Origin: a virus
Direction: 5' to 3' (one strand)
IMG/VR virus record: IMGVR_UViG_3300027816_000069
Span: 1-64,000 of that record
Length of the DNA: 64,000 nt
The position numbers and the translations under genes are program-made. Under the pieces are notes generated by a model. It was not told where the DNA came from and did no database searches. It worked only from the letters and a program-made list of their open reading frames with translations. This document shows positions 4,839 through 50,063 of the stretch, one piece after another. Numbering within the stretch: position 1 is the stretch's first letter; every line of letters starts with the position of its first letter.

Positions 4839-5941
4839 TATAGATTGCCCACGTATGCTGTATTATTGGGATGTGCTTTAACTGTATATATAACACTATT
4901 TTGAATCACTCGATATAATCCTGGAATTACATTATACAGTTGTAGTATGCCGATATCAGACTGAGAATAAAAATTATTGCCATATATTTCTATAGGCAAA
5001 GATGAATCTAAATTAATCATTATATTACTTAGTCCTTTATTTGGTTTAGTCTTATTTAATGGTAATAATAAAGATCCAGTTGCTGATGTCCTGTTGTCTT
5101 GTGAGTGAATATCTATCGTAAAGATATCACTATCTAATATGTTATTATTTACTTTGTATACTTGTAATGGTCCATTCCTATCTATTATTTTAATAGAATA
5201 TGTTCCTGATACCAAATTTTTGATCTCAATAGTATTACTATTAACTAAATAACTCTTATTATTGAGCATTAATTGATATGATATCTCACTATTCGATACA
5301 CCATTTTCTGGTTTGAGTACTAATGATATCGAACCCAATGGAAAATAAGTATTAAATAATGGCCTAATATAAGATTGTGATAAATCAATATCATTCAGTT
5401 TTTGTAGCGTATCTAGATTGTCATTGTGCAAAACTTGGAGGGTTGAGGTTGTGGTATTGGCCACATAATGATTGTATCTATTAAAAATATCATAAATCTT
5501 AATTTTTAAATTATTATTCGATATATTAATTATACCATCACTATATCTAGTAAATATAGATGAATAATCATCTGGTAATATTATACTACCCATAATCAAC
5601 TTGGGACTATGAGCTGAATATAACGAGGTTGACAGTGGCGTTTTAGTGTCGCCTATGAGTATACTATATTTGGTATTATAGGTTCTTTTGATACCATTGA
5701 CTATATAATAGTAATAGTATTCGGTGTCTGCTAAAATAATTTTATCAGTGTCAATACCAATAATCTGCTCAATTATTTGACCAGTAGTTTCATTAATTAT
5801 TTTAACAGAATCTGAAATATTATATAGATTACTAGATAATAATAGAGTATTATAAATATTTAAGCTTGGTATAAATTGTGGTGGATGATTAATACTATAA
5901 TCCTTAGTGGTTGTATATTCCACACTAATCCTATTACTCAT
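4838..5941 (-). CDS. hypothetical virion protein (beta-rich)
   Basis: 367-aa ORF, stop/start coupled to neighbour. Confidence 0.55.
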   Translation of the reverse strand: MSNRISVEYTTTKDYSINHPPQFIPSLNIYNTLLLSSNLYNISDSVKIINETTGQIIEQIIGIDTDKIILADTEYYYYYIVNGIKRTYNTKYSILIGDTKTPLSTSLYSAHSPKLIMGSIILPDDYSSIFTRYSDGIINISNNNLKIKIYDIFNRYNHYVANTTTSTLQVLHNDNLDTLQKLNDIDLSQSYIRPLFNTYFPLGSISLVLKPENGVSNSEISYQLMLNNKSYLVNSNTIEIKNLVSGTYSIKIIDRNGPLQVYKVNNNILDSDIFTIDIHSQDNRTSATGSLLLPLNKTKPNKGLSNIMINLDSSLPIEIYGNNFYSQSDIGILQLYNVIPGLYRVIQNSVIYTVKAHPNNTAYVGNL

Positions 5942-5948
5942 AATTATC

Positions 5949-7724
5949 CTATGAACATGATGGTTTAGTATATGATTGATTTAATTTATATGTATTACTA
6001 CCTATTGTTTCTTGATCATTAGTTTTAAACCAACAACTAAAATCTATACCAGCATCAGTTTTTAATTGTTCAAGAGTTTGGTAAGCACATGCTCTTAATC
6101 CACTGATAGATCCTGATGTCATATCAAAATTACAATTATTTCTATTTTTGCTTACATTAATAGATAAATCATACTTTTCAGCAGAATCACAGCATAAGCT
6201 TTGTATAATAGAACTACCTCTACCTGGGATAATAAATTCAACAATATTGTTATGTGGTTTGTCATGGGTGATTTCGACATCAATTTTAGTAGTGCCAATA
6301 GTATTACAACTAGGCTTATTAGAGAGAGTCCATATTGCATTAATTTCGCCCTGAGATAAATTTCTACTAATTTGTTTACTAATCATTCTCATCTCGCATA
6401 ATAAGCTAGATGGAGGCGCAGATGGAGATGGTGAACTACATACTCCTGTTGATGTACTCAAAGGACAATCATCAATCAAATTAGATTGAGTAAAATATTT
6501 ATTTGCTAATAGTGTTATATATCTATCACTAGTTAAATTTAAAAATGCTTGAGCGTGATCTAGTTTTTGTGTAAAATTACAACCATGGAATGTTGGATTA
6601 CTCATTTTAATAATTTGATCATATTGATTATTAAATAAACCCTGAATATTAGCTGTTAATGTTATAGTATTTCCTTCTGTATCTACATTTTCTTCTACTG
6701 TCATTGTTGTAAATACTCTATCTTCAATAGATCCTGATGGTACTGATATGCCAGAACCGCATCCAGATGGCCTATAAATAACTTCACCAGTTAAATTAAT
6801 ACTATTTTCTAATGGATTAATATCTATACTTCTCAAATCAAGAAATTTATAACCTGTGCGATATGATGCGAAGGTTGGGGTAAGTTCAGTATTTGGTGCA
6901 TCAAATAATCCATCAATATTCATATCGACTAAATTATTAATTCTTTGTCGTATATAATCTTCGGCAGCATTTAAACCAAACTTTAGATGGGTAATAGGAT
7001 TACCAGATCCAACACCGCTACATTCATTTAGCCCTCTAATACCGGCAGCACTAATATTAAAAGATGTTTTAAGATGTTTATTACCCCAATATTTGGGACC
7101 AATCTGTGTGCTTGTTTGAGGATCTATTATTGATAAATTATAGTAATTAAAAGTATCGTCATTAATATTAACTGAAAATTGTTCACTAATGCTATTTAGC
7201 ATAAGGTCTGCTAATTCGTGTACTCTGGGAGAGGACGAGGGAGATATAATATCAGGGGTTGTAACTCTTACGCCACTAGCTAAACTAATATCATTAGTAT
7301 ATAAATCAATCTCAATAGTATAGGGTGCTATATTAACCCATGTGGGCATATTGCCTTGATCAATATTTATGGATGTAATTCTTCCATATCCGCTCACAAT
7401 CTTATCCACGCACTTAATTTCTACAAATACACATTCTCTATATTGACCCAACTGTAAAATATCCTTTAAGCCAGTAACACCACCAGCTCCTGTTGTAACA
7501 ACCTCATTAAAACTACTACCAGTAACTGTACCACTTAAAGTGAGTTTTAGTATACCACCAATAGTAAGATCACCCACCTTATATTTTTCTAAAACAAGAG
7601 AGATAAAAGGCGACGGTATTAATTGTTTACCACCAACTACCACCGAGGCGCCAGCATTAGCCGGACCACCACCATTGAATATGGTTGACACATCACAGGT
7701 AGAGTTATTATTTATTGTTGGCAT
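5949..7724 (-). CDS. putative distal tail/hub protein
   Basis: 591-aa ORF immediately after tape measure gene; positional inference. Confidence 0.55.
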   Translation of the reverse strand: MPTINNNSTCDVSTIFNGGGPANAGASVVVGGKQLIPSPFISLVLEKYKVGDLTIGGILKLTLSGTVTGSSFNEVVTTGAGGVTGLKDILQLGQYRECVFVEIKCVDKIVSGYGRITSINIDQGNMPTWVNIAPYTIEIDLYTNDISLASGVRVTTPDIISPSSSPRVHELADLMLNSISEQFSVNINDDTFNYYNLSIIDPQTSTQIGPKYWGNKHLKTSFNISAAGIRGLNECSGVGSGNPITHLKFGLNAAEDYIRQRINNLVDMNIDGLFDAPNTELTPTFASYRTGYKFLDLRSIDINPLENSINLTGEVIYRPSGCGSGISVPSGSIEDRVFTTMTVEENVDTEGNTITLTANIQGLFNNQYDQIIKMSNPTFHGCNFTQKLDHAQAFLNLTSDRYITLLANKYFTQSNLIDDCPLSTSTGVCSSPSPSAPPSSLLCEMRMISKQISRNLSQGEINAIWTLSNKPSCNTIGTTKIDVEITHDKPHNNIVEFIIPGRGSSIIQSLCCDSAEKYDLSINVSKNRNNCNFDMTSGSISGLRACAYQTLEQLKTDAGIDFSCWFKTNDQETIGSNTYKLNQSYTKPSCS

Positions 7725-38853: not shown

Positions 38854-38865
38854 GAGGAACCCGAT

Positions 38866-38909
38866 CTGCCAAAATGGCAGGCGGGCCGGCCGATCTGCCA
38901 AAATGACAC
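38866..38909. repeat. 44-bp double-palindrome element 2
   Basis: Same layout, second arm CTGCCAAAATGACAC. Confidence 0.9.
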
Positions 38910-39257: not shown

Positions 39258-39575
39258 ATGAATCACGCCGAAGCAATTAAGATGGTTCGTGGCAAGAGGA
39301 ACGCTGATCGTCGCAAGGTTGGCAACAATACCTATGCTGAAATTCTGCCGAATGGTAGTGTGGGAATTATGCTTCACAGTACCTATGTTGTACAGATTCA
39401 TCCTGACAATACCTACACCCTCAATAGTGGGGGCTGGCAAACGCTAACCACTAAGGATAGAATTAACCAGTATAGCCCGCGTCGAGTGTACCAGCGGAAT
39501 TTTGAATGGTTCGTGAAGATTAACGATAAGGAATATCCTTTTATGGATGGGATGGTGGTGGGTTGTCCCACCTAA
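39258..39575 (+). CDS. phage hypothetical protein
   Basis: GGWQTLTTKDRIN; own promoter at 39202. Confidence 0.75.
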   Translation: MNHAEAIKMVRGKRNADRRKVGNNTYAEILPNGSVGIMLHSTYVVQIHPDNTYTLNSGGWQTLTTKDRINQYSPRRVYQRNFEWFVKINDKEYPFMDGMVVGCPT

Positions 39576-40592: not shown

Positions 40593-41003
40593 ATGATGAA
40601 TGAAGTGATTATTGGTGCTATTGCTGCTGTGGTATTGGTTGCTGGTCTTCTGTCGTTTGCTGGTTTTCATGTGTATGGTGGCGTTAAGGATAGTCTGACC
40701 AATGCACGGGTTGGTCGAGTATACAACTTTGAGTATATTCAGCCCGTGACGGGTGATCCTGAGCGATTTATGGCTAAGGTGCTGGATGTTCATGAGTTTT
40801 CCGCTGATTATCTGGCTAGACTGAATGCGGTGAGTAGGTATCGTAGGTATGATCCTAACTTTGAGCGTAGCCGCCATATGGTGACGGCCCAAACGCCAGA
40901 TGGTAAGATTAGGAACTTTTACGCTGAACGCACCCGCAATGTTCGTCGGCCACTCCTTGGTGGGGTAGCCTTCCGAACAGGGCTGGCTGAACTGCTGTCC
41001 TGA
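40593..41003 (+). CDS. membrane-anchored hypothetical protein
   Basis: N-terminal TM segment; promoter at 40533. Confidence 0.7.
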   Translation: MMNEVIIGAIAAVVLVAGLLSFAGFHVYGGVKDSLTNARVGRVYNFEYIQPVTGDPERFMAKVLDVHEFSADYLARLNAVSRYRRYDPNFERSRHMVTAQTPDGKIRNFYAERTRNVRRPLLGGVAFRTGLAELLS

Positions 41004-41019
41004 AAAGATGTTCCATCGC

Positions 41020-41051
41020 AAGCCCGTCCTAGGAAACCCCTAGGGCGGGCT
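41020..41051 (+). terminator. strong hairpin after 40593 gene
   Basis: AGCCCGTCCTAGG/CCTAGGGCGGGCT; no clear U-tract. Confidence 0.5.
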
Positions 41052-41061
41052 GATGGAGTTT

Positions 41062-41105
41062 CTGCCAAAACGGCAGGCGGGCCGGCCGATCTGCCATAAT
41101 GGCAG
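41062..41105. repeat. 44-bp double-palindrome element 4
   Basis: CTGCCAAAACGGCAG-N14-CTGCCATAATGGCAG. Confidence 0.95.
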
Positions 41106-41235
41106 GAAATTTCTTGTGGATTTTGTCTCTTGACAAGCCGATACTAGAGTGTAGAATGATAGAGTCACCAACAAAAATCCGATTCATTCGGTGTTATACG
41201 CTTGACAAGTCGAGAACGTATGCTATATTGGTGAC

Positions 41236-41828
41236 ACAAACTTTCGTGGGTCCATGCGGCGGGACTAGATTGGGATAACCTATTTCGATAAACTTTCTCT
41301 GAAAGACTGGGGGAGTTGCCAACGGGGTTATACGTTGGATAGAAGTACCAATCTATGGGGGATGGCGTCCTCACCACGACCAATACTTTATGGGTGACGG
41401 TTTTCCGTATGACGAGGCAAAGCACAGCGGAGCGAAGGGGAGTTACCGGTGACGAACCTTCCACGCGGCCTCCCAAACTGCGAAAGCAGGAGTAGAAATA
41501 GGTGACACCCATAAACAATATTATGGTTCCTAGATAATAGGTTAGGATTAAAAACGTTCGCCCTTCCCATCCTTTGTGATAGGCTAAAAACGTTGCCATA
41601 TACAATACAACCAGTAACCGTTTCTAAGAGCCAGACCAAATAGGGTTATATGCGCAATACCACCTTATTTGCAGGGAGGATTTCCGTGGACGGTTTTCAT
41701 AGAATCGGGGCGTAAAAGATTCGCTGGTTACAAATCTGCTGATAGTTTCCCTTAGATAAGGTAAAACCTTGAGGTTGAACGGATCAGTACCGAGAGGCTG
41801 TTCGTAAAACTATCGGCGGTCGGTACTT
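41236..41828 (+). ncRNA. candidate large structured non-coding RNA (~590 nt)
   Basis: No plus-strand ORF; promoter TTGACA-N16-TATATT at 41202; several 8-13 bp long-range helices, GAAA tetraloop, two pseudoknots. Confidence 0.7.
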
Positions 41829-41860
41829 GACTTGATGATAAAGAATGGTAGAATAGTTTT

Positions 41861-42061
41861 ATGAAAATCATACCAAAACAAAACGCACGAAAGTGGACAA
41901 AAGAACGGCTGAAACGTCATCCGGGTCTTTGGAAGGTTGAGCAGGATGCTAAGAGTGTTCCTTGCTGGCCGGGCGAAGATGCTATTTTGATGAAAAATTT
42001 GACTGATGGTTGGAGTGGCTGGTTTCCGATAAAAGATATTGACATAGCCGGTCAGGAATGA
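41861..42061 (+). CDS. hypothetical protein
   Basis: ATG right after promoter 41827-54 (near-leaderless). Confidence 0.6.
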   Translation: MKIIPKQNARKWTKERLKRHPGLWKVEQDAKSVPCWPGEDAILMKNLTDGWSGWFPIKDIDIAGQE

Positions 42062-43315: not shown

Positions 43316-43359
43316 CCGCCAAAATGGCAGGCTGGCCGGCCGATCTGCCAAAATGGCAT
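43316..43359. repeat. 44-bp double-palindrome element 5
   Basis: CCGCCAAAATGGCAG-N14-CTGCCAAAATGGCAT. Confidence 0.9.
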
Positions 43360-43424
43360 TCTTTTTTTCTTAAGAATACTCTTGACAGACGCCGATCATA
43401 GGAGTATACTTAATACACAACCAT

Positions 43425-43507
43425 GCCGCTGTGGTGGAATTGGCATACACATGACACTTAAAATGTCACGCCTTATAGGCTTGCGAGTTCAAGTCTCGCC
43501 AGCGGTA
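43425..43507 (+). tRNA. tRNA-Leu(TAA)
   Basis: GCCGCTG/CAGCGGT acceptor, TGACA-CTTAAAA-TGTCA anticodon arm, long variable arm. Confidence 0.9.
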
Positions 43508-43567
43508 TTCTTTTTAGTCCGAATTGTAAACGCTCTATATAGTAGACACCAAAGCGTTTGAAATATT

Positions 43568-43614
43568 TGTTTTTCCCAATCCTTCGGATTTGGCTGGTGT
43601 GGCTGTAGTCAGCG
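43568..43614 (+). repeat. 47-bp motif copy 2
   Basis: Gapless match. Confidence 0.75.
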
Positions 43615-43690
43615 AAAGTTTAAAGGTCTTGACAAGGTTTGGTCGATAAGGTATAATAGAAACAACAAGACGCATAACTAAAGCGAAATA

Positions 43691-43775
43691 CCCCGATGTT
43701 CCACACGACTGACTGTAAATCAGTTGACATATTATGTGTGGCGGCTGTCAAGTGGTTCAACTCCTCCATCGGGGA
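43691..43775 (+). tRNA. non-canonical tRNA-Tyr(GTA)-like RNA
   Basis: CCCCGATG/CATCGGGG acceptor, ACTGA-CTGTAAA-TCAGT anticodon arm, no D stem, weak T stem. Confidence 0.55.
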
Positions 43776-43819
43776 TTAAAGGTCTTGACAAGCACTAGCC
43801 GATAAGATATACTACAAGC

Positions 43820-44233
43820 ATGAAACAGAAACCACTACATGCCGAAGTTCGATTCCATCTTGGTAAAGGTCAGTTTTTTAAGCATTGGCAAATCAAGATT
43901 GTACAAGGAAAAGAGAAGGTTGATGTTTACTATTGTGATCCTGCCTATTATCAATTAGAGATGATTGGGTGCAAATTAATCAATAAGGTTAATCAGGCTA
44001 AAAAGGTTCATGAGGCTGGCGTTAAGGATGTTACGGGGTGGGTTGAGTGTAGGGATGTTAGAATAAATAATGAAGTAGGGGTTGACAATCTTGAGAAATT
44101 ATACTACAATCCGTTGAGAGATCCGCACTGGCGTCGTGAAAGCGACAATAACGAGTTCATTTGGGATAATAGTGAATACGCTACTCTACTAACTAACGGC
44201 AAACAAGTTTATATTTTGGAAGAAAGGGTTTGA
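43820..44233 (+). CDS. hypothetical protein
   Basis: 137 aa, ATG just after promoter ~43784. Confidence 0.7.
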   Translation: MKQKPLHAEVRFHLGKGQFFKHWQIKIVQGKEKVDVYYCDPAYYQLEMIGCKLINKVNQAKKVHEAGVKDVTGWVECRDVRINNEVGVDNLEKLYYNPLRDPHWRRESDNNEFIWDNSEYATLLTNGKQVYILEERV

Positions 44234-44235
44234 AT

Positions 44236-44607
44236 ATGATCAAGTTGGAACTGACGGTTCGTGAGGCTATGAATCTGGCGACGAACTGCCACCTCGATAT
44301 CTATGAGCGGATTGTGGCCGCTTTTGAGGTTGCGTTGGGTGTGAACCAGCACAGGATGGTTACTATCACCGCTGGCATGACTCTTGATAACCGTGTTCCT
44401 TGTATCAAGGCTATCCGACTCCACGCCGGCTGGGGTTTTAAGGAGGCAAAGGAGTGGACGGATTTTCTGGTTGGCGGCTGGAAGTACGACAAGTGGCATC
44501 CTGCTTCTCCCAACGCCAAGCAGAGCATCACCCTCAAGACTCCGGAAGCGGCCGAGAATCTGCTGCGTGATCTGACCACTTTGGGTTGTGAGGGTTTTCT
44601 CTCATGA
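44236..44607 (+). CDS. ribosomal protein bL12 C-terminal-domain-like protein
   Basis: RVPCIKAIRLHAGWGFKEAKEWTD resembles the L7/L12 KxxxIKxVRxxTGLGLKEAKxxV motif. Confidence 0.65.
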   Translation: MIKLELTVREAMNLATNCHLDIYERIVAAFEVALGVNQHRMVTITAGMTLDNRVPCIKAIRLHAGWGFKEAKEWTDFLVGGWKYDKWHPASPNAKQSITLKTPEAAENLLRDLTTLGCEGFLS

Positions 44608-44619
44608 TCCAAACCCTGT

Positions 44620-44663
44620 CTGCCAAAATGGCAGCGGGGCCGGGCGATCTGCCAAAATGACAG
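44620..44663. repeat. 44-bp double-palindrome element 6
   Basis: CTGCCAAAATGGCAG-N14-CTGCCAAAATGACAG. Confidence 0.95.
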
Positions 44664-44846
44664 CATAAAAAATTCATGTATGATACTTGACAATGCCGAT
44701 GCTTAGTGTAGAATGATGTTATCACGAGACAAGACGCTGGTTGACTGCAACACAAAAAAGTTCAACCCAGCACTTGACAAGTGACGATAAGTGATGTATG
44801 ATTCGTTTATTGGTGGTTGATAACTCTTTTGGGAAAGGTTTTTACT

Positions 44847-45104
44847 ATGCGTACTTATGATTTTGCGGTTGCTGTTGCGTCGGACACTCTTGATACGGAA
44901 GTGGTTGAGGATACGATTCGTCAGGCTCTTGCCGATGGTCTGCCCGATGGTACTCTTGTGGTGGTCAAGGCCCAGGGTATCAAGGACTATAGCGAGCAGG
45001 GCTGGAAGGTTGCCCGTAATCGCAAGTTCGGTGTGAGTGTCAAGGAAGCCGGTGACGGTCACAAGGCTAAGACTACTAAGGTTGAGGCGGAGACTGTTGG
45101 CTGA
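44847..45104 (+). CDS. hypothetical protein
   Basis: MRTYDFAVAV..., two tandem upstream promoters. Confidence 0.7.
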   Translation: MRTYDFAVAVASDTLDTEVVEDTIRQALADGLPDGTLVVVKAQGIKDYSEQGWKVARNRKFGVSVKEAGDGHKAKTTKVEAETVG

Positions 45105-45170
45105 ACACGGTTCGGGAGTTATAATGTCCGATAGACCGCTGGTGGACGCACTGGCGGCTATCGGTATTTC

Positions 45171-45242
45171 GGCCCCATAGTTAAAAGGATATAACACGGG
45201 ATTTCTAATCCTGTATTAGAGGTTCGATTCCTCTTGGGGCTA
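45171..45242 (+). tRNA. tRNA-Arg(TCT)
   Basis: Cloverleaf, CGGGA-TTTCTAA-TCCTG. Confidence 0.9.
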
Positions 45243-45246
45243 TTTA

Positions 45247-45320
45247 GGGAGCGTAGATCAATCGGTTAGATCGCCAGCCTGTCACGCTGGAGGTTGCGGG
45301 TTCGAGTCCCGTCGCTCTCG
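45247..45320 (+). tRNA. tRNA-Asp(GTC)
   Basis: Cloverleaf, CCAGC-CTGTCAC-GCTGG. Confidence 0.92.
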
Positions 45321-45323
45321 CTT

Positions 45324-45367
45324 CTGCCAAAATGGCAGGCTCCGCGGCCGAACTGCCAAAATGGCAG
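45324..45367. repeat. 44-bp double-palindrome element 7
   Basis: Two perfect 15-mers, 14-nt spacer. Confidence 0.95.
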
Positions 45368-45441
45368 TTAAAATTTTGTGGATTCTTTCTCTTGACAAGC
45401 CGATAACGTAGTGTAGAATCACTAGCACAAGGGAGATAACC

Positions 45442-46146
45442 ATGAAAACTGCTGATGGTAACGACAAGTTGGGTAAGGGTTGCATTGTGGTTTCGCGTCC
45501 TGTTGGCGACACTTGCCCGTCAACGTGCGACTTTCTCAATAATGGCTGCTATGCCGAAGCCACCGAGAATCAGTATAAGAACGCTCGCACCGCGGGCTTT
45601 GCTAATGTTATTACCGAAAAGCATAAGATTCGTGCTATGATTCTTGATGCTATCAAGCGTAATAAAAGCATCCGCTGGCATGAGCGTGGCGATTGGTTTC
45701 TCAACGGCGAACTTGATACCAACTATGTTGAGAATGTAACGTGGGCGTGTGAGAGTGTTCTGGCCGATGGTATTAGTCTGCCTAATATGTGGTTTTATAC
45801 TCATATCTACGATAGTCGGCTTGTTGTACTGGAAAAGTATATGGCCGTCTATGCTAGTATTCATAATGCAGAAGATAGGGCTGCTGCGGTGTCTGCCGGT
45901 TTTAAGTTGTTTGCGTGGTGCGATAGTGATACTAAGATTGCTCCCAAGCGTCCAAAGAGTAAGGCCAAGGCCGATGCGTGGCGTAAGGCTTTGCCTAAAC
46001 TGGTAATTATCGAAGATGTCAAGTATGTTGTTTGCCCCGAGATTCGTCGTGGTCGATCAGTTATTACTTGTACTGGTACTAAGGATAGTATTAGTTGTGA
46101 TATGTGCGTCAAGGGTTTGGCTAACGTACTATTTCCTGCCCACTAA
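45442..46146 (+). CDS. Cys-motif protein, gp88-like
   Basis: TCPSTC...GCYA, IRWHERGDW, WFYTH, C-terminal CPE...C...CDMC. Confidence 0.55.
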   Translation: MKTADGNDKLGKGCIVVSRPVGDTCPSTCDFLNNGCYAEATENQYKNARTAGFANVITEKHKIRAMILDAIKRNKSIRWHERGDWFLNGELDTNYVENVTWACESVLADGISLPNMWFYTHIYDSRLVVLEKYMAVYASIHNAEDRAAAVSAGFKLFAWCDSDTKIAPKRPKSKAKADAWRKALPKLVIIEDVKYVVCPEIRRGRSVITCTGTKDSISCDMCVKGLANVLFPAH

Positions 46147-46158
46147 AAGGATATAACA

Positions 46159-46401
46159 ATGGCTAAGTATTATGTTAATAGTGGTACGCTTCAAGTGATT
46201 ATGGACCATAGTGATCCTCTTGAGGCTGGAGTGGCCGGATTCCTAATGACTAACAAGATGGATACAATAGATGAGTATTTTTATATTGATGAGCGTGGTT
46301 TTCGTGATTATGTCAGTGCTGATAATGGTACTAACGTAATTCCTACTTCTAGCATTATTCGTGCCGCCGAATCCGAATTGACGGATGACACTCTGCCATA
46401 A
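46159..46401 (+). CDS. hypothetical protein
   Basis: AAGGA RBS. Confidence 0.7.
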   Translation: MAKYYVNSGTLQVIMDHSDPLEAGVAGFLMTNKMDTIDEYFYIDERGFRDYVSADNGTNVIPTSSIIRAAESELTDDTLP

Positions 46402-46436
46402 TGGCAGGGCGGCCGGGCGATCTGCCAAAACGGCAG
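46393..46436. repeat. 44-bp double-palindrome element 8
   Basis: CTGCCATAATGGCAG-N14-CTGCCAAAACGGCAG. Confidence 0.95.
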
Positions 46437-46501
46437 TTAAGTTTCTGGTACGATTGGCCGATAATTCTTTCATGGACAAGGGTTTGACAAGGAGGGTTAA
46501 T

Positions 46502-46864
46502 ATGCTACAATGGATTGGCGTTGCGTTGACTGCTGCTGCTTTGGTGTATACGGGTGTTAAGGATTATCAAAAAGGGGATATAAAAATTCCTCCCCTAAAT
46601 AAAAATTTGACAACTCCTAAGTATCCTGTACAATATTGTTTAATGGCGTATGACCCTAACCTAGATAGGATTTTTTACCTTCACGAAAACGGACAATGGT
46701 ATGATCATCCCCCACAACAACGACGATATGCGGCCACGTCGCAAGTACAACAGTATCAAAATCAAAACCAAGCAGCGGTGGGAACTTCCTACGGGTCACA
46801 GGGAGGAGCGGTATACGGTTATGGACAATCGGCCCAAGCGTCAACGTACCCGCAGCGATATTGA
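46502..46864 (+). CDS. membrane-anchored hypothetical protein with Gln/Tyr-rich tail
   Basis: AGGAGG RBS, N-terminal hydrophobic helix. Confidence 0.5.
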   Translation: MLQWIGVALTAAALVYTGVKDYQKGDIKIPPLNKNLTTPKYPVQYCLMAYDPNLDRIFYLHENGQWYDHPPQQRRYAATSQVQQYQNQNQAAVGTSYGSQGGAVYGYGQSAQASTYPQRY

Positions 46865-46895
46865 CAGGAAGTGGCGTAAGGAGTATGATATATAG
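46728..46895 (+). CDS. small Arg/Lys-rich protein
   Basis: MRPRRKY...DNRPKRQRTR; overlaps previous ORF in another frame. Confidence 0.5.
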   Translation: MRPRRKYNSIKIKTKQRWELPTGHREERYTVMDNRPKRQRTRSDIDRKWRKEYDI

Positions 46896-46976
46896 GTTAT
46901 TCTTGGTTTGAGTCATGACAAATCGAGAAGATAGTTTATGAGGGTATTCTATCTTTAAATAAAAACTATCCTCTTT

Positions 46977-47049
46977 GCCGGTATAACTCAGTTAGCAGAG
47001 TGTCAAATTTGTAATTTGAATGTCGTGGGTGCAAATCCTACTACCGGCT
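46977..47049 (+). tRNA. tRNA-Thr(TGT)
   Basis: Cloverleaf; atypical T-loop TGCAAAT. Confidence 0.85.
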
Positions 47050-47082
47050 CTAGGAATTGAAATAAAAAACGGTGAATAATGC

Positions 47083-47155
47083 TGCCCGGTAGCTTAACTG
47101 GTAAAGCTGTTGACTTTGGATCAACTGAGTCTAGGTTCGAATCCTAGCCGGGCAT
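47083..47155 (+). tRNA. tRNA-Gln(TTG)
   Basis: Cloverleaf, GTTGA-CTTTGGA-TCAAC. Confidence 0.92.
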
Positions 47156-47164
47156 ATGATTTAT

Positions 47165-47236
47165 ACACGGGTAGCATAATGGTAATGCCCCAAACTGTTA
47201 ATTTGTCAGATGTAGGTTCGAATCCTACCCCGTGTG
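47165..47236 (+). tRNA. tRNA-Asn(GTT)
   Basis: Cloverleaf, one anticodon-stem mismatch. Confidence 0.85.
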
Positions 47237-47245
47237 CTTAGTTTG

Positions 47246-47316
47246 ATTGGCGTAGTTCAACGGTAGAACGACGGTCTCCAAAACCGTAGATGGGGGTTCG
47301 ATTCCCTCCGCCTTTG
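47246..47316 (+). tRNA. tRNA-Trp(CCA)
   Basis: ACGGT-CTCCAAA-ACCGT; two T-T mismatches in acceptor stem. Confidence 0.75.
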
Positions 47317-47318
47317 TT

Positions 47319-47405
47319 GGAATCTTGGCCGAGTGGTTTAAGGCAGCGGTTTACTAAGCCGCCGAGGGTTAAAATCCTCCACAGGTTCGAATCCTGTAGA
47401 TTCCG
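47319..47405 (+). tRNA. tRNA-Ser(ACT)
   Basis: GGAATCT/AGATTCC, GCGGT-TTACTAA-GCCGC, long variable arm, G73. Confidence 0.88.
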
Positions 47406-47407
47406 TT

Positions 47408-47487
47408 GGTGGATTTCCAGAGCGGCAAATGGGCCTGACTGTAGATCAGGTGCTTCGGCTTCGGGGGTTCGAGTCCCTCATCCACCA
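47408..47487 (+). tRNA. tRNA-Tyr(GTA)
   Basis: Canonical cloverleaf, CCTGA-CTGTAGA-TCAGG. Confidence 0.92.
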
Positions 47488-47537
47488 CTAAACTTTTACT
47501 TGACAACGGTCGATAACAAGGTATAATCCCACAACAC

Positions 47538-47613
47538 GGGGCGTAAGGTAAGCCGGTTGCATCCGTCACTCTTATAAGGTGATCTTAGGTACGTTCGACT
47601 CGTACACGCCCTA
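47538..47613 (+). tRNA. tRNA-Ile(TAT)
   Basis: GGGGCGT/ACGCCCT, TCACT-CTTATAA-GGTGA, A73. Confidence 0.8.
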
Positions 47614-47652
47614 CTTATATGTTTCGGAGGCTGACGTTTGAGTTGCGAGTGT

Positions 47653-47725
47653 GGCCCTATCGTCTAACGGTTTAGGACTTCGGATTTTCGTTCCGAATAT
47701 CGGGGTTCGAATCCCCGTAGGGTCA
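47653..47725 (+). tRNA. tRNA-Glu(TTC)
   Basis: Cloverleaf, TCGGA-TTTTCGT-TCCGA. Confidence 0.9.
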
Positions 47726-47766
47726 CTTGACAAAACAATCTGGCGAGGTACAATAAGGCTAAATAC

Positions 47767-47839
47767 GGGTCATTAGCTCAATTGGCAGAGCAGCATCCTT
47801 TTAAGTTGTAGGTTGTAGGTTCGAGTCCTACATGACCCA
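47767..47839 (+). tRNA. tRNA-Lys(TTT)
   Basis: Cloverleaf, one anticodon-stem mismatch. Confidence 0.87.
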
Positions 47840-49925: not shown

Positions 49926-49969
49926 CTGCCAAAACGGCAGGGCGGCCGGCCGATCTGCCAAAATGGCAG
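49926..49969. repeat. 44-bp double-palindrome element 9
   Basis: CTGCCAAAACGGCAG-N14-CTGCCAAAATGGCAG. Confidence 0.95.
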
Positions 49970-50063
49970 AAAAAATTTCCTCAATTCTGGCTGTTGACAA
50001 GACGATATCATAGTGTAGAATCAGTGCATCGGAACGAAGAACGCTATCACGAAAGGGTTGACA

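What the first reader, a model, noticed from the sequence alone, without database searches (positions are those of the whole stretch)
41236..41828. ~590-nt candidate large structured ncRNA with two pseudoknots
Seen: no plus-strand ORF, two tandem promoters upstream (41130, 41202) and the next promoter at 41827. Helices: TTTATGGGTG 41387-96/CACCCATAAA 41506-15; ACCTATTTC 41278-86/GAAATAGGT 41495-503, which crosses the first; GGGACTA 41261/TGGTTCC 41524; CTGC-GAAA-GCAG 41478-89; CAAATAGGG/CCTTATTTG; CTGCTGATAGTTT 41736-48/AAACTATCGGCGG 41807-19; loop AGTACCGA 41786-93 pairing with terminal TCGGTACT 41820-27. Several G-U pairs favour the plus strand. Established: large ornate RNAs such as GOLLD and ROOL occur in phages near tRNAs. 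I cannot assign a family, so it may be new.
Basis: partly seen in the sequence, partly recalled or inferred. Interest (0 to 1): 0.8.

Follow-up and report, generated by a model that had tools for sequence, protein, structure and literature searches.

The report
Modular folded RNAs of lake phages
This gene-free 600 bases of an uncultured lake phage encodes a chain of five separately folded, conserved RNA units that match no catalogued RNA family, and one unit carries a self-complementary loop that probably lets it pair with a copy of itself.

Summary
The stretch is real structured non-coding RNA on the + strand, but it is not one 590-nt fold. It is a promoter-driven string of five modules: M1 41244-41379, M2 41387-41515, M3 41522-41602, M4 41609-41729 and M5 41736-41827. 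Short conserved CAAUAC/ACAAAC linkers join them.

- **Spread:** M1 and M4 recur in well over 100 lake-phage contigs (93 and 136 distinct sequences).
- **Covariation:** M1 is 95.0% paired against 31-46% for slid controls, with 29 of 46 pairs showing double changes. M4 is 84.8% against 31-50%, with 23 of 34.
- **Modularity:** M2, M3 and M5 are optional cassettes. M1, M4 and M5 each also occur alone.
five of seven are supported, including the M5 pseudoknot. The two long-range M1-M2 and M1-M3 helices are not. M1 has a different, strongly supported pseudoknot.
- **New here:** the apical loop of M4 holds a perfect palindrome of 6 nt or more in 48 of 62 distinct hairpins (shuffles: mean 13.9, maximum 24). 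This points to symmetric kissing-loop dimers, as reported for OLE and GOLLD.
- **Databases:** no match in Rfam 15, in 50,697 GenBank phages, or to T4 rnaC/rnaD.

Expression and processing could not be tested, and the function is unknown. This scan met the same RNA families before on other phage DNA.

The parts
41130..41157 (+). Promoter-like site P1 (TTGACA-16-TAGAAT). It is part of a terminator-plus-promoter cassette repeated through the early region.
   Evidence: 11 of 12 matches. One search finds 41061-41158 repeated at five other places in the genome.
41202..41229 (+). Promoter-like site P2 (TTGACA-16-TATATT, with TG before the -10 hexamer). The predicted start lies about 41236.
   Evidence: 11 of 12 matches. 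Sequence.
41236..41243 (+). 5' leader ACAAACTT. ACAAAC is the same A-rich motif that serves as the linker in front of the modules.
   Evidence: 76 of 98 distinct M1 upstream contexts begin with ACAAAC. In many of them it is preceded by CAAT.
41244..41379 (+). Module M1, cloverleaf-like. It has a closing stem TCGTGG/CCACGA and a hairpin GTCC/GGAC. A long arm TAGATTGG/CCAATCTA encloses the helices TATTTC/GAAGTA, AACT.../...AGTT and CCAACG/CGTTGG. A pseudoknot joins ATAACC (41275-80) with GGTTAT (41326-31). A last hairpin GGGGAT/GTCCTC lies beside the 3' strand of the closing stem.
   Evidence: (alignment A3, 61 sequences): 95.0% of cells paired against 31-46% when slid, 29 of 46 pairs with changes on both sides, 0 of 500 shuffles as high. 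The pseudoknot helix is 99.2% paired, with CG:31 GC:30 at one pair.
41380..41386 (+). Linker C-CAATAC.
   Evidence: CAATAC follows M1 in most of the 61 rows. One search gives the position.
41387..41515 (+). Module M2, an optional cassette. It is closed by TTTATGGGTG/CACCCATAAA, holds the CTGC-GAAA-GCAG hairpin, and has a hairpin loop with the self-complementary TTACCGGTGA (41443-52).
   Evidence: found in 12 of 229 loci, 10 of them at >=70% of its length; in 8 of the 10 loci whose module order I listed it lies between M1 and M4 or after M1; 8 distinct sequences with compensatory changes in the closing stem (L030), in an inner helix (GCG/CGC to ACA/TGT) and in the GAAA hairpin.
41516..41521 (+). 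Linker CAATAT.
41522..41602 (+). Module M3, a rare optional cassette closed by TATGGTTCC.../...GCCATA. The evidence for it is thin.
   Evidence: full length only in L176 and L107 (one distinct second sequence). One inner helix changes AACGTT/AACGTT to AGAGTT/AACTCT.
41603..41608 (+). Linker CAATAC.
   Evidence: 63 of 108 distinct M4 contexts have CAATAC here. Most others differ by one base (TAATAC 10, AAATAC 8, CCATAC 7).
41609..41729 (+). Module M4, the most widespread unit. It has a closing stem AACCAG/CTGGTT, an arm AACCGTT/GGACGGTT that carries a variable hairpin (41637-41671), and a hairpin GAATC/GATTC with the 11-nt loop GGGGCGTAAAA (41707-17). Many homologs have a fourth hairpin that this copy lacks.
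   Evidence: (alignment A2, 133 distinct sequences): closing stem 96.7% paired, arm 99.8% (fully swapped to GTTG/CAAC in L130 and L150), GAATC hairpin 99.8%, and all 6 tested pairs of the variable hairpin covary. The helix AGAGCC/GGATTT is weak at 73%.
41651..41656 (+). Palindrome TGCGCA in the apical loop of the M4 variable hairpin. It is a candidate symmetric kissing-loop contact.
   Evidence: 48 of 62 distinct hairpins carry a perfect palindrome of 6 nt or more here, of at least seven different sequences (shuffles: mean 13.9, maximum 24). Other hairpins of the same RNAs give 5 of 80, 3 of 43 and 0 of 19.
41730..41735 (+). Linker ACAAAT.
   Evidence: In other loci M5 is preceded by CAATACAACTC or ACAATTC.
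41736..41827 (+). Module M5, an optional terminal cassette. It has the closing stem CTGCTGATAGTTT/AAACTATCGGCGG and two inner hairpins. A pseudoknot joins loop AGTACCGA (41786-93) to tail TCGGTACT (41820-27). The tail overlaps the -35 hexamer of the next promoter.
   Evidence: The pseudoknot is kept as AGTACCAC/GTGGTACT in L160 (two compensatory pairs) and as GCCGA/TCGGC in L011 and L232 (one). In L011 and L232 M5 stands alone directly after a promoter.
41827..41854 (+). Promoter-like site of the next unit (ORF 41861-42061). It marks the end of the RNA string.
   Evidence: 10 of 12 matches..

Best explanation
Window 41236-41827 (+) is an early-region transcription unit of an uncultured freshwater phage. 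It encodes no protein. It encodes a string of five independently folding, conserved RNA modules joined by short A-rich linkers (CAAUAC / ACAAAC).

M1 and M4 are the core pair. M2, M3 and M5 are cassettes that related phages add, drop or use alone.

**Shown**
- Conservation of the modules, and base-pair covariation within each of M1, M2, M4 and M5 (thin for M3).
- Plus-strand G.U bias.
- Independent occurrence of M1, M4 and M5.
- Conserved linkers.
- Palindromic apical loops in M4.

**Inferred mechanism**
1. Host RNA polymerase transcribes the string from P1/P2.
2. The string is probably cut at the linkers into stable small RNAs, about 55% likely. The reason is that the same linker flanks every module type and that true or odd tRNAs sit in such strings in related phages. 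This would resemble T4's tRNA-cluster RNAs.
3. M4, and perhaps M2, pairs with a second copy of itself through its palindromic loop and forms a symmetric dimer or larger assembly, about 50% likely.

**Function.** What the assembly does is unknown. My best guess, about 25%, is a scaffold or decoy that engages a host or phage factor of translation or tRNA metabolism.
For: **Conservation**
- blastn and nhmmer find the M1 block in 180 and the M4 block in 208 of 229 fetched loci. There are 93 distinct M1 and 136 distinct M4 sequences.
- The M4 loop 19-mer occurs in 48 IMG/VR contigs.

**Structure**
- M1: 95.0% paired, 29 of 46 pairs with double changes, 0 of 500 shuffles as high, slid controls 31-46%.
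- M4: 84.8% paired, 23 of 34 pairs with double changes, slid controls 31-50%.
- M2, M3 and M5 show compensatory changes.

**Strand:** G.U against A.C cells are 215 to 40 in M1 and 382 to 52 in M4.

**Modularity**
- Full units range from 232 to 767 nt in 44 distinct forms.
- M4 stands alone behind its own promoter in L114 and L143.
- M1 is followed by an ORF in L017, by a different module plus terminator in L030, and by an M5-like module and then a tRNA-shaped sequence that ARAGORN does not call in L053.
- M5 stands alone behind a promoter in L011 and L232.
- A second 5'-domain type with the same architecture occurs in L082, L086, L101, L106 and L091.

**Linkers:** ACAAAC begins 76 of 98 M1 contexts, and CAATAC precedes 63 of 108 M4 contexts.

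**Palindromic loops:** 48 of 62 distinct hairpins against a shuffle mean of 13.9. GCTAGC switches to GCATGC on an otherwise unchanged hairpin in L221 and L209. Kretsch et al. used the same logic for OLE L9.3 and GOLLD L21a (passages).

**tRNA neighbours:** the tRNA-Glu and tRNA-Met genes follow M4 by 13 nt in L093. Odd tRNA-shaped genes follow the strings in L042, L091 and L069.
Against: - **No expression data.** No transcript, end or processing site was observed, so 'cut at the linkers' and even the transcription start are inference.
- **M1 and M4 are tightly linked.** Of 121 distinct M4 contexts, 110 have M1 upstream in the same order: 51 directly and 59 with an insert. This would also fit a single two-domain RNA.
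- **Ascertainment.** Most M4 copies were fetched with a pattern taken from M4's own loop, so the invariance of that loop is partly built in. Loci found through the flanking protein do show variants (L056, L028, L060).
- **The shuffle controls ignore phylogeny.** 29 of the 48 palindromic hairpins share the GCTAGC core. The 14 hairpins without a 6-nt palindrome include L175, L234 and L180.
- **Folding energy** of the whole stretch is not exceptional (z = -0.87).
- **The linker is not enriched in the window as a whole.** CAATAC occurs 51 times against 40.7 expected, and 4 of 100 shuffles reach 51. The phage's own tRNA array does not use it.
- **M3** rests on two distinct sequences.
Confidence: 0.7

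Rival explanations
1. The stretch is one large multi-domain 'ornate' RNA that works unprocessed. M1 would be a variable 5' domain, M4 the conserved 3' domain, and the linker would tolerate inserts. This is a miniature GOLLD-like architecture.
For: - M1 lies upstream of M4 in the same order in 110 of 121 distinct contexts.
- No terminator-like site lies inside the string.
- GOLLD is described as having a universally conserved 3' region, a less conserved 5' region and sometimes tRNAs in its linker (Kretsch et al., passages). Here a tRNA-shaped insert lies in the linker of L008, L025 and L101.
Against: - No covarying M1-M4 helix appears in 98 distinct pairs.
- M1, M4 and M5 occur alone with their own promoters or next to ORFs.
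- The same linker motif flanks unrelated modules and also opens the transcripts.
- No GOLLD or ROOL match at E <= 10.
Confidence: 0.3
2. The modules are cis-acting leader elements, riboswitch- or attenuator-like, that control the downstream ORF 41861-42061.
For: No terminator lies between M5 and the ORF. In L017 M1 lies directly before a ribosome-binding site and ORF, and in L053 a CAATACAA linker does.
Against: - The ORF has its own promoter at 41827.
- What lies downstream differs between loci: ORFs, tRNAs, terminator palindromes or a run of T.
- M4 usually ends the unit with a T-rich tail.
- No expression platform overlaps a ribosome-binding site in the window.
Confidence: 0.07
3. The conserved thing is the minus-strand ORF 41165-41605 (146 aa) or another small protein, and the helices are incidental.
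For: The ORF is open in the window. tblastn gives 104 HSPs in 78 loci.
Against: - Among the 12 commonest HSP ranges that one search printed, all start at residue 50 or later, i.e. they cover the part that overlies M1 DNA; I did not list every HSP, so I did not check that none reaches full length.
- The N-terminal half lies in M2 and M3, which most loci lack.
- The median longest stop-free frame in 45 distinct units is 67 aa, and the minimum is 42 aa in a 234-nt unit.
- No Pfam or PHROG hit.
- Substitutions are compensatory in helices.
Confidence: 0.01
4. These are DNA-level elements such as mobile miniature inverted-repeat cassettes or protein-binding palindromes, or decayed tRNA genes with no RNA function.
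For: - M2 has 10-bp terminal inverted repeats and is flanked by repeats of the linker.
- The M4 loop palindromes look like protein sites or restriction sites.
- Some M1 variants have a hairpin shaped like a tRNA T arm, and odd tRNA-like genes lie nearby.
Against: - G.U greatly exceeds A.C in the helices, which only makes sense for + strand RNA.
- The pseudoknots covary.
- The palindromes differ in sequence between variants while keeping self-complementarity, which a sequence-specific DNA-binding protein would not explain.
- Junction nucleotides are strongly conserved across 93 to 136 distinct sequences.
Confidence: 0.05

Closest known systems
Phage T4 small stable RNAs RNAC and RNAD (species 1 and 2), in AF158101 at 70908-71171
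   Same: Both are phage-encoded non-coding RNAs of unknown role that lie with tRNA genes and are separated from them by a few A/U-rich bases. Two papers say their function is unknown (passages of PMC3014915 and PMC9697503). By my reading, rnaC ends in a tRNA-type T arm. Some M1 variants carry a hairpin of that shape at the same position.
   Different: There is no sequence similarity. nhmmer with the M1, type-2 and M4 profiles gives 0 hits at E <= 10 in the 4-kb T4 locus, and blastn-short gives only 9-10-nt chance words outside rnaC/rnaD. Here the units form strings with a repeated CAAUAC linker, are shuffled between phages, and sit behind early-type sigma-70-like promoters. The T4 RNAs were classed as late (PMC9697503 passage).
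GOLLD RNA (Rfam) and ROOL RNA
   Same: Both are phage or prophage RNAs, often near tRNA genes. GOLLD was named partly for lake metagenomes. GOLLD has a conserved 3' region, a less conserved 5' region, and tRNAs sometimes in its linker. Its homo-oligomers are held by kissing loops, and loop palindromes that switch sequence are taken as evidence (Kretsch et al., bioRxiv 10.1101/2024.12.08.627333, passages). Here M4 is the conserved 3' unit, M1 comes in two types, the linker takes inserts, and M4's loop palindromes switch.
   Different: There is no match to any Rfam model at E <= 10 or at gathering score. Units are 232-767 nt, whereas GOLLD members often exceed 800 nt. The parts occur alone with their own promoters. 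No structure or oligomer has been observed.
Symmetric kissing-loop dimers (OLE L9.3, GOLLD L21a; retroviral dimerisation loops, recalled)
   Same: Each has a self-complementary run of 6-8 nt in an apical loop that cannot pair within one chain. The run changes between different palindromes across homologs (passage).
   Different: Here this is only inferred from sequence. About a quarter of the distinct M4 hairpins lack a 6-nt palindrome, and the stand-alone M4 copies (L114, L143) have a GCAA tetraloop instead.
tRNA and tRNA-like RNAs
   Same: M1 is a four-way junction. It has a 6-bp closing stem, a 4-bp hairpin with an 8-nt loop, one long arm, and a last hairpin that abuts the 3' strand of the closing stem. 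M4 has a 6-bp closing stem, a 2-nt joint, and a 5-bp hairpin just before the 3' strand.
   Different: ARAGORN and Rfam call no tRNA or tmRNA here. There is no anticodon loop. The loop of the last hairpin is not T-loop-like in most copies. No CCA end is consistently encoded.

Membership tests
GOLLD (Rfam RF01998) / ROOL (Rfam RF03087) | Match to the family covariance model | tested here: not met
   cmscan of all 4227 Rfam 15 families gave nothing in this region. At gathering score over the window there are only 11 tRNAs. At E <= 10 over 40900-42000 there are only two noise hits of 12.3 and 11.4 bits to other families. Five homologous loci gave nothing either.
GOLLD (Rfam RF01998) / ROOL (Rfam RF03087) | Conserved 3' region, less conserved 5' region, and an insert-tolerant linker that sometimes holds a tRNA (as worded in Kretsch et al.) | tested here: inconclusive
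   The analogous layout is seen: M4 is universal, M1 comes in two types, and inserts of 16-900 nt occur in 59 of 121 contexts. However, the tRNA-shaped insert of L008, L025 and L101 is not called by ARAGORN, and layout alone does not define the family.
GOLLD (Rfam RF01998) / ROOL (Rfam RF03087) | Assembly into RNA-only multimeric cages | not testable with these tools
   Only the palindromic loop of M4 hints at self-association.
T4 RNAC / RNAD | Sequence or profile similarity to rnaC or rnaD | tested here: not met
   0 nhmmer hits at E <= 10. The blastn-short words fall outside rnaC/rnaD.
T4 RNAC / RNAD | Location within or beside the phage tRNA gene cluster, co-oriented with it | tested here: inconclusive
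   In the window the string ends 1.6 kb before the first tRNA (43424) and about 5 kb before the main array. In L093 tRNA genes follow M4 by 13 nt, and in L042, L091 and L069 odd tRNA-like genes follow.
T4 RNAC / RNAD | Stable RNAs processed out of a longer transcript | not testable with these tools
   No RNA run was listed as holding this DNA.
tRNA / tmRNA | Recognised by ARAGORN or the Rfam tRNA/tmRNA models | tested here: not met
   The 12 tRNAs all lie at 43424-47839, with none at 41000-42000.
Group I/II introns, RNase P RNA, riboswitches, small ribozymes | Match to the Rfam models | tested here: not met
   (E <= 10, permissive filters). There is also no exon context: the promoter -10 hexamer ends 6 nt before the RNA.
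Symmetric kissing-loop dimer RNAs (mechanistic class, not a family) | A self-complementary loop sequence that changes between different palindromes across homologs | tested here: met
   48 of 62 distinct hairpins, against a shuffle mean of 13.9 and a maximum of 24. The cores are GCTAGC, TCATGA, TGATCA, GCATGC, GGTACC, TGCGCA and TTCCGGAA. Control hairpins give 5 of 80, 3 of 43 and 0 of 19.
Symmetric kissing-loop dimer RNAs (mechanistic class, not a family) | Physical dimer formation | not testable with these tools
   This needs native gels, SEC-MALS or cryo-EM.

The most novel reading that the evidence does not exclude
M1-M4 strings are a miniature, modular counterpart of the giant phage RNAs GOLLD and ROOL. 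On this reading they are self-assembling RNAs whose palindromic loops (M4 41651-56, and M2 41443-52 in this phage) weld copies into symmetric dimers or larger RNA-only lattices early in infection. Cassettes would be exchanged between phages at the CAAUAC linkers to tune the assembly.
Probability: 0.25. Interest if true: 0.85.

Novelty: new variant of a known kind. Interest (0 to 1): 0.66.

Why it matters
Phage-encoded structured RNAs beside tRNA genes (T4 RNAC/RNAD, GOLLD, ROOL) have had no known function for decades. This locus adds at least two well-supported new RNA families, M1 and M4, each with dozens of covarying base pairs. They are abundant in lake phages and absent from Rfam and from cultured-phage records.

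The units are small (about 120-135 nt), modular, and carry a testable self-pairing loop. That makes them far easier to study by native gels, SHAPE or cryo-EM than the 600-800-nt ornate RNAs.

If they do self-assemble or are released by tRNA-processing enzymes, they would link the old T4 puzzle to the new RNA-nanocage findings.

Tried and rejected
- **Rfam.** Nothing at gathering score or at E <= 10.
- **GenBank phages.** No blastn or megablast match with 871 nt, with 10 kb, or with M1 or M4 alone at E <= 1.
- **Bacterial and archaeal species genomes.** A degenerate M4 pattern gave 2 contigs. Both are chance matches inside GC-rich coding DNA and have no nhmmer hit.
- **RNA evidence.** No RNA holder was listed. 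All 20 DNA holders are freshwater or lake metagenomes flagged as possible sources of this DNA, so I draw no expression or distribution claim from them. I did not use read laying, because contigs of DNA runs cannot show RNA ends.
- **Inter-module helices.** A scan of 98 M1/M4 pairs gave only short, wobble-rich complementarities without real covariation.
- **A trans target for the M4 loop.** Its complement occurs 8 times in the window with up to 2 mismatches, against 11.5 expected.
- **Ro60/TROVE and CCA-adding enzyme genes in the phage.** None found. The record is 88% complete.
- **Flanking proteins.** No informative family for the two immediate neighbours.
- **Resemblances I considered from memory** (RNase P P4-like pairing, group I intron core, tmRNA, Y RNA, an rRNA-like loop). 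I rejected them for lack of any model match and because the helix order differs. None was tested beyond Rfam.
- **Alternative register for the last M1 hairpin.** My script built that structure string wrongly (second string), so I did not use it. The register is therefore not settled.
- **M4 helices.** Helix 5 of the M4 structure (the fourth hairpin) is misaligned in A2 (33.7% paired) and I draw nothing from it. Helix AGAGCC/GGATTT is weak at 73%.
- **Context count.** The type-2 classifier mislabelled L106, L082 and L086 as 'none'. I corrected these by eye. Of the seven remaining 'none' contexts I inspected only L093, L114 and L143.
- **Covariance models.** I built none, because a full-length model would exceed the size that can be calibrated.
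- **Literature.** Four searches listed no paper describing these RNAs, judged from titles and abstracts only.
Full report
**Setting.** The window is the first 64 kb of a 122,350-nt IMG/VR virus record, 88% complete by CheckV.
- It carries a large terminase, a protein with the Kyano_Gp96 domain of T4-like cyanophages, and 12 tRNA genes at 43424-47839.
- The early region is a run of very short units. Each has a near-consensus TTGACA/TAGAAT promoter: 23 sites in 5 kb against 11.7 +/- 3.4 in shuffles.
- The units are punctuated by a repeated terminator-plus-promoter cassette, of which 41061-41158 is one copy.
- Between the end of a 156-aa ORF (41003) and the next ORF (41861) lie about 850 nt with no convincing ORF.

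**Checking the observation.**
- Folding energy does not separate the stretch from shuffles: z = -0.87 on the + strand and +0.44 on the - strand. Stability alone proves nothing.
- Rfam 15 has no match at gathering score or at E <= 10.
- 50,697 GenBank phage records have no blastn match.

**Homologs.**
- The 156-aa flank protein finds 49 related viral loci, and the 66-aa downstream ORF finds 12.
- blastn of 41159-41860 against these loci shows two strongly conserved DNA blocks, 41236-41386 and 41603-41734. They are separated by 41387-41602, which most relatives lack.
- A 19-mer from the 3' block occurs in 48 IMG/VR contigs.
- Only two hits came from 185,579 species genomes, and both are chance matches in coding DNA.
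- Over 229 loci, nhmmer finds the 5' block in 180 and the 3' block in 208. There are 93 and 136 distinct sequences.
- Caveat: most loci were fetched through the 3' block itself, so counts of its presence and the invariance of its loop are partly built in.

**Anatomy.** After I had seen the two blocks and the insert, earlier notes of this scan on other genomes suggested that such stretches are strings of separate modules joined by AAUACAA-type spacers. I tested that reading here. The window divides as follows:

| Part | Coordinates |
|---|---|
| Leader ACAAACTT | 41236-43 |
| M1 | 41244-41379 |
| Linker CCAATAC | 41380-41386 |
| M2 | 41387-41515 |
| Linker CAATAT | 41516-41521 |
| M3 | 41522-41602 |
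| Linker CAATAC | 41603-41608 |
| M4 | 41609-41729 |
| Linker ACAAAT | 41730-41735 |
| M5 | 41736-41827 |

- The tail of M5 overlaps the -35 hexamer of the next promoter.
- ACAAAC begins 76 of 98 distinct M1 contexts, often preceded by CAAT. CAATAC precedes M4 in 63 of 108 contexts, and most of the rest differ by one base.
- The hexamer is not enriched in the window as a whole: 51 against 40.7 expected. It does not separate the phage's tRNA genes.

**M1.** On 61 sequences no more than 95% alike, the structure I derived is 95.0% paired, against 31-46% when the 3' partners are slid.
- 29 of 46 pairs show changes on both sides, and 0 of 500 shuffles reach any of the five measures.
- M1 is a four-way junction:
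  - a 6-bp closing stem;
  - a 4-bp hairpin with an 8-nt loop;
  - a long arm, TAGATTGG/CCAATCTA, holding three helices;
  - a pseudoknot, ATAACC/GGTTAT (99.2% paired, CG:31 GC:30 at one pair);
  - a final hairpin next to the 3' strand of the closing stem.
- In some variants the final hairpin has a 5-bp stem and a 7-nt loop like a tRNA T arm (rows L205 and L018).
- A second 5'-domain type in L082, L086, L101, L106 and L091 also has a hairpin of that shape (TCGGG-TTGGATT-CCCGA). It keeps the M1 helix order with different sequences.

**M4.** On 133 distinct sequences:
- The closing stem is 96.7% paired.
- The AACCGTT/GGACGGTT arm is 99.8% paired and is fully swapped to GTTG/CAAC in L130 and L150.
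- The GAATC/GATTC hairpin is 99.8% paired.
- All six tested pairs of the variable hairpin covary.
- Overall, 84.8% of cells are paired against 31-50% when slid, and 23 of 34 pairs show double changes.
- One inner helix is weak (73%). The optional fourth hairpin is misaligned in my alignment and is not interpreted.

**M2, M3 and M5**.
It also shows them in an inner helix and in the CTGC-GAAA-GCAG hairpin.
- M3 has only one other distinct sequence, with one compensated helix.
The M2 side stays fixed, and the M1 side changes together with its local partners.

**Strand and coding.**
- G.U cells outnumber A.C cells 215 to 40 in M1 and 382 to 52 in M4, so the helices belong to + strand RNA.
- The minus-strand ORF 41165-41605 matches other loci mainly where it overlies M1 DNA. 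In the ranges that one search printed, the HSPs begin at residue 50 or later.
- The median longest stop-free frame in 45 distinct units is 67 aa.

**One RNA or several?**
- For separate units:
  - M4 stands alone directly behind its own promoter in L114 and L143.
  - M1 is followed by an ORF in L017, and by a different module plus a terminator in L030.
  - In L053 M1 is followed by an M5-like module and then a tRNA-shaped sequence that ARAGORN does not call.
  - M5 stands alone behind a promoter in L011 and L232.
  - The same linker flanks unrelated modules and also opens the transcripts.
  - tRNA-Glu and tRNA-Met follow M4 by 13 nt in L093, and odd tRNA-shaped genes follow strings in L042, L091 and L069.
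  - No M1-M4 helix covaries.
- For one RNA:
  - Of 121 distinct M4 contexts with enough upstream DNA, 51 have M1 directly upstream and 59 have it upstream with a 16-900-nt insert.
  - About 4 have the type-2 domain, and 7 have neither (corrected by eye). A further 28 had too little upstream DNA.
- That linkage resembles GOLLD. GOLLD is described as having a conserved 3' region, a less conserved 5' region and sometimes tRNAs in its linker (Kretsch et al., passages).
- No RNA run was listed as holding this DNA, so the question stays open. I put processing at about 55%.

**A new feature: palindromic loops.**
- The apical loop of the M4 variable hairpin holds a perfect palindrome of at least 6 nt in 48 of 62 distinct hairpins. 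In 300 shuffles the mean is 13.9 and the maximum 24 (similar figures).
- At least seven different cores occur: GCTAGC (29), TCATGA, TGATCA, GCATGC, GGTACC, TGCGCA (this window, 41651-56) and TTCCGGAA.
- L221 and L209 differ from the commonest form only by CTAG to CATG, two changes that keep self-complementarity. L175 has a single change that breaks it.
- Three other hairpin regions of the same RNAs have fewer palindromes than shuffles: 5 of 80, 3 of 43 and 0 of 19.
- Adjacent bases of such a run cannot pair within one chain. Kretsch et al. used the same pattern as evidence for symmetric intermolecular kissing loops in OLE and GOLLD.
- M2's loop also holds a self-complementary TTACCGGTGA in 6 of 8 sequences.
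- The stand-alone M4 copies have a GCAA tetraloop instead.
- I read this as probable homodimerisation, about 50%. It is an inference from sequence, and the shuffle control ignores shared ancestry.

**Comparison with known RNAs.**
- T4 RNAC and RNAD are the nearest in setting and are still of unknown role (passages in PMC3014915 and PMC9697503).
- They share no sequence with M1-M5.
- GOLLD and ROOL are nearest in layout and in the self-pairing signal. They fail the model test and are several times larger.
- I file the RNAs under none of these families.
- Four literature searches listed no description of these RNAs, judged from titles and abstracts only.

**Verdict.** This is a real, conserved, uncatalogued set of structured phage RNAs.
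- The same families were noted earlier in this scan on other phage genomes, so the find is not unique to this window.
- The function is unknown.
- The palindromic loop and the small size make a direct bench test of self-assembly straightforward.

Noticed in passing
window 41061-41158; also 45322-45419, 49926-50021, 38865-38908, 44619-44717, 43318-43358: A cassette of about 100 nt is repeated at least six times in the early region at 75-93% identity. It consists of a double CTGCC/GGCAG palindrome followed by a TTGACA/TAGAAT promoter. It closes one short unit and opens the next.
   Followed up: partly
L008 about 6405-6555; L025 about 5200-5350; L101 (minus strand), between the type-2 domain and M4: The M1-M4 linker holds an insert of about 150 nt. 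It has a 7-bp acceptor-like stem (GGGGTTA/TAACCTC), a T-arm-like GGCGGGTTTGAATCCCG, and TCCA at its 3' end. ARAGORN does not call it a tRNA. It looks like a tRNA-shaped RNA with a large internal expansion.
   Followed up: partly
L042 6992-7069; L091 5329-5408 (minus strand); L069 6894-6968 (minus strand): ARAGORN calls 'tRNA-???' genes with 2-nt or 4-nt anticodons directly after an M4 + M5-like string. These may be odd or decayed tRNAs that are part of the same operons.
   Followed up: no
L082, L086, L101, L106 and L091, upstream of M4: A second type of 5' domain (ACAAACTTACGTGTGGTAGTTGC...GAGAGATAGCCCAGCAAACAGCG...TCGGGTTGGATTCCCGACACAC) replaces M1. It keeps the same order of helices but has different sequences, including a T-arm-shaped last hairpin.
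   Followed up: partly
L134, L042, L091, L145, L069, L053, L028 and L180: A relative of M5 (ACAAACAGGGGTCGGATAG...GTGCGTGATACCGGACAC...GTAAAACTATCGGTG) follows M4 or M1 and is followed directly by tRNA-like genes. It shares only the GTAAAACTATC closing strand with the window's M5.
   Followed up: no
window 47538-47548: The tRNA-Ile(tat) gene called by ARAGORN starts GGGGCGTAAGG. This is nearly the same as the conserved M4 loop GGGGCGTAAAAG (41707-18). It may be coincidence.
   Followed up: no
window 41164-41201: Between P1 and P2 lies a small hairpin CCGA-TTCAT-TCGG (about 41181-41193). The segment 41163-41238 is itself conserved in several related loci, so there may be a further short unit or a regulated tandem promoter.
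   Followed up: no
L156 3040-3313 and 4437-4747: One metagenome contig carries two M1-M4 pairs 1.1 kb apart with different variable hairpins. Some phages therefore hold more than one copy.
   Followed up: no
window 39258-39575: This 105-aa ORF matches Pfam Kyano_Gp96 (6.6e-11). It is a hint that the phage is related to T4-like cyanophages. Its capsid-region proteins otherwise have no PHROG hits.
   Followed up: no
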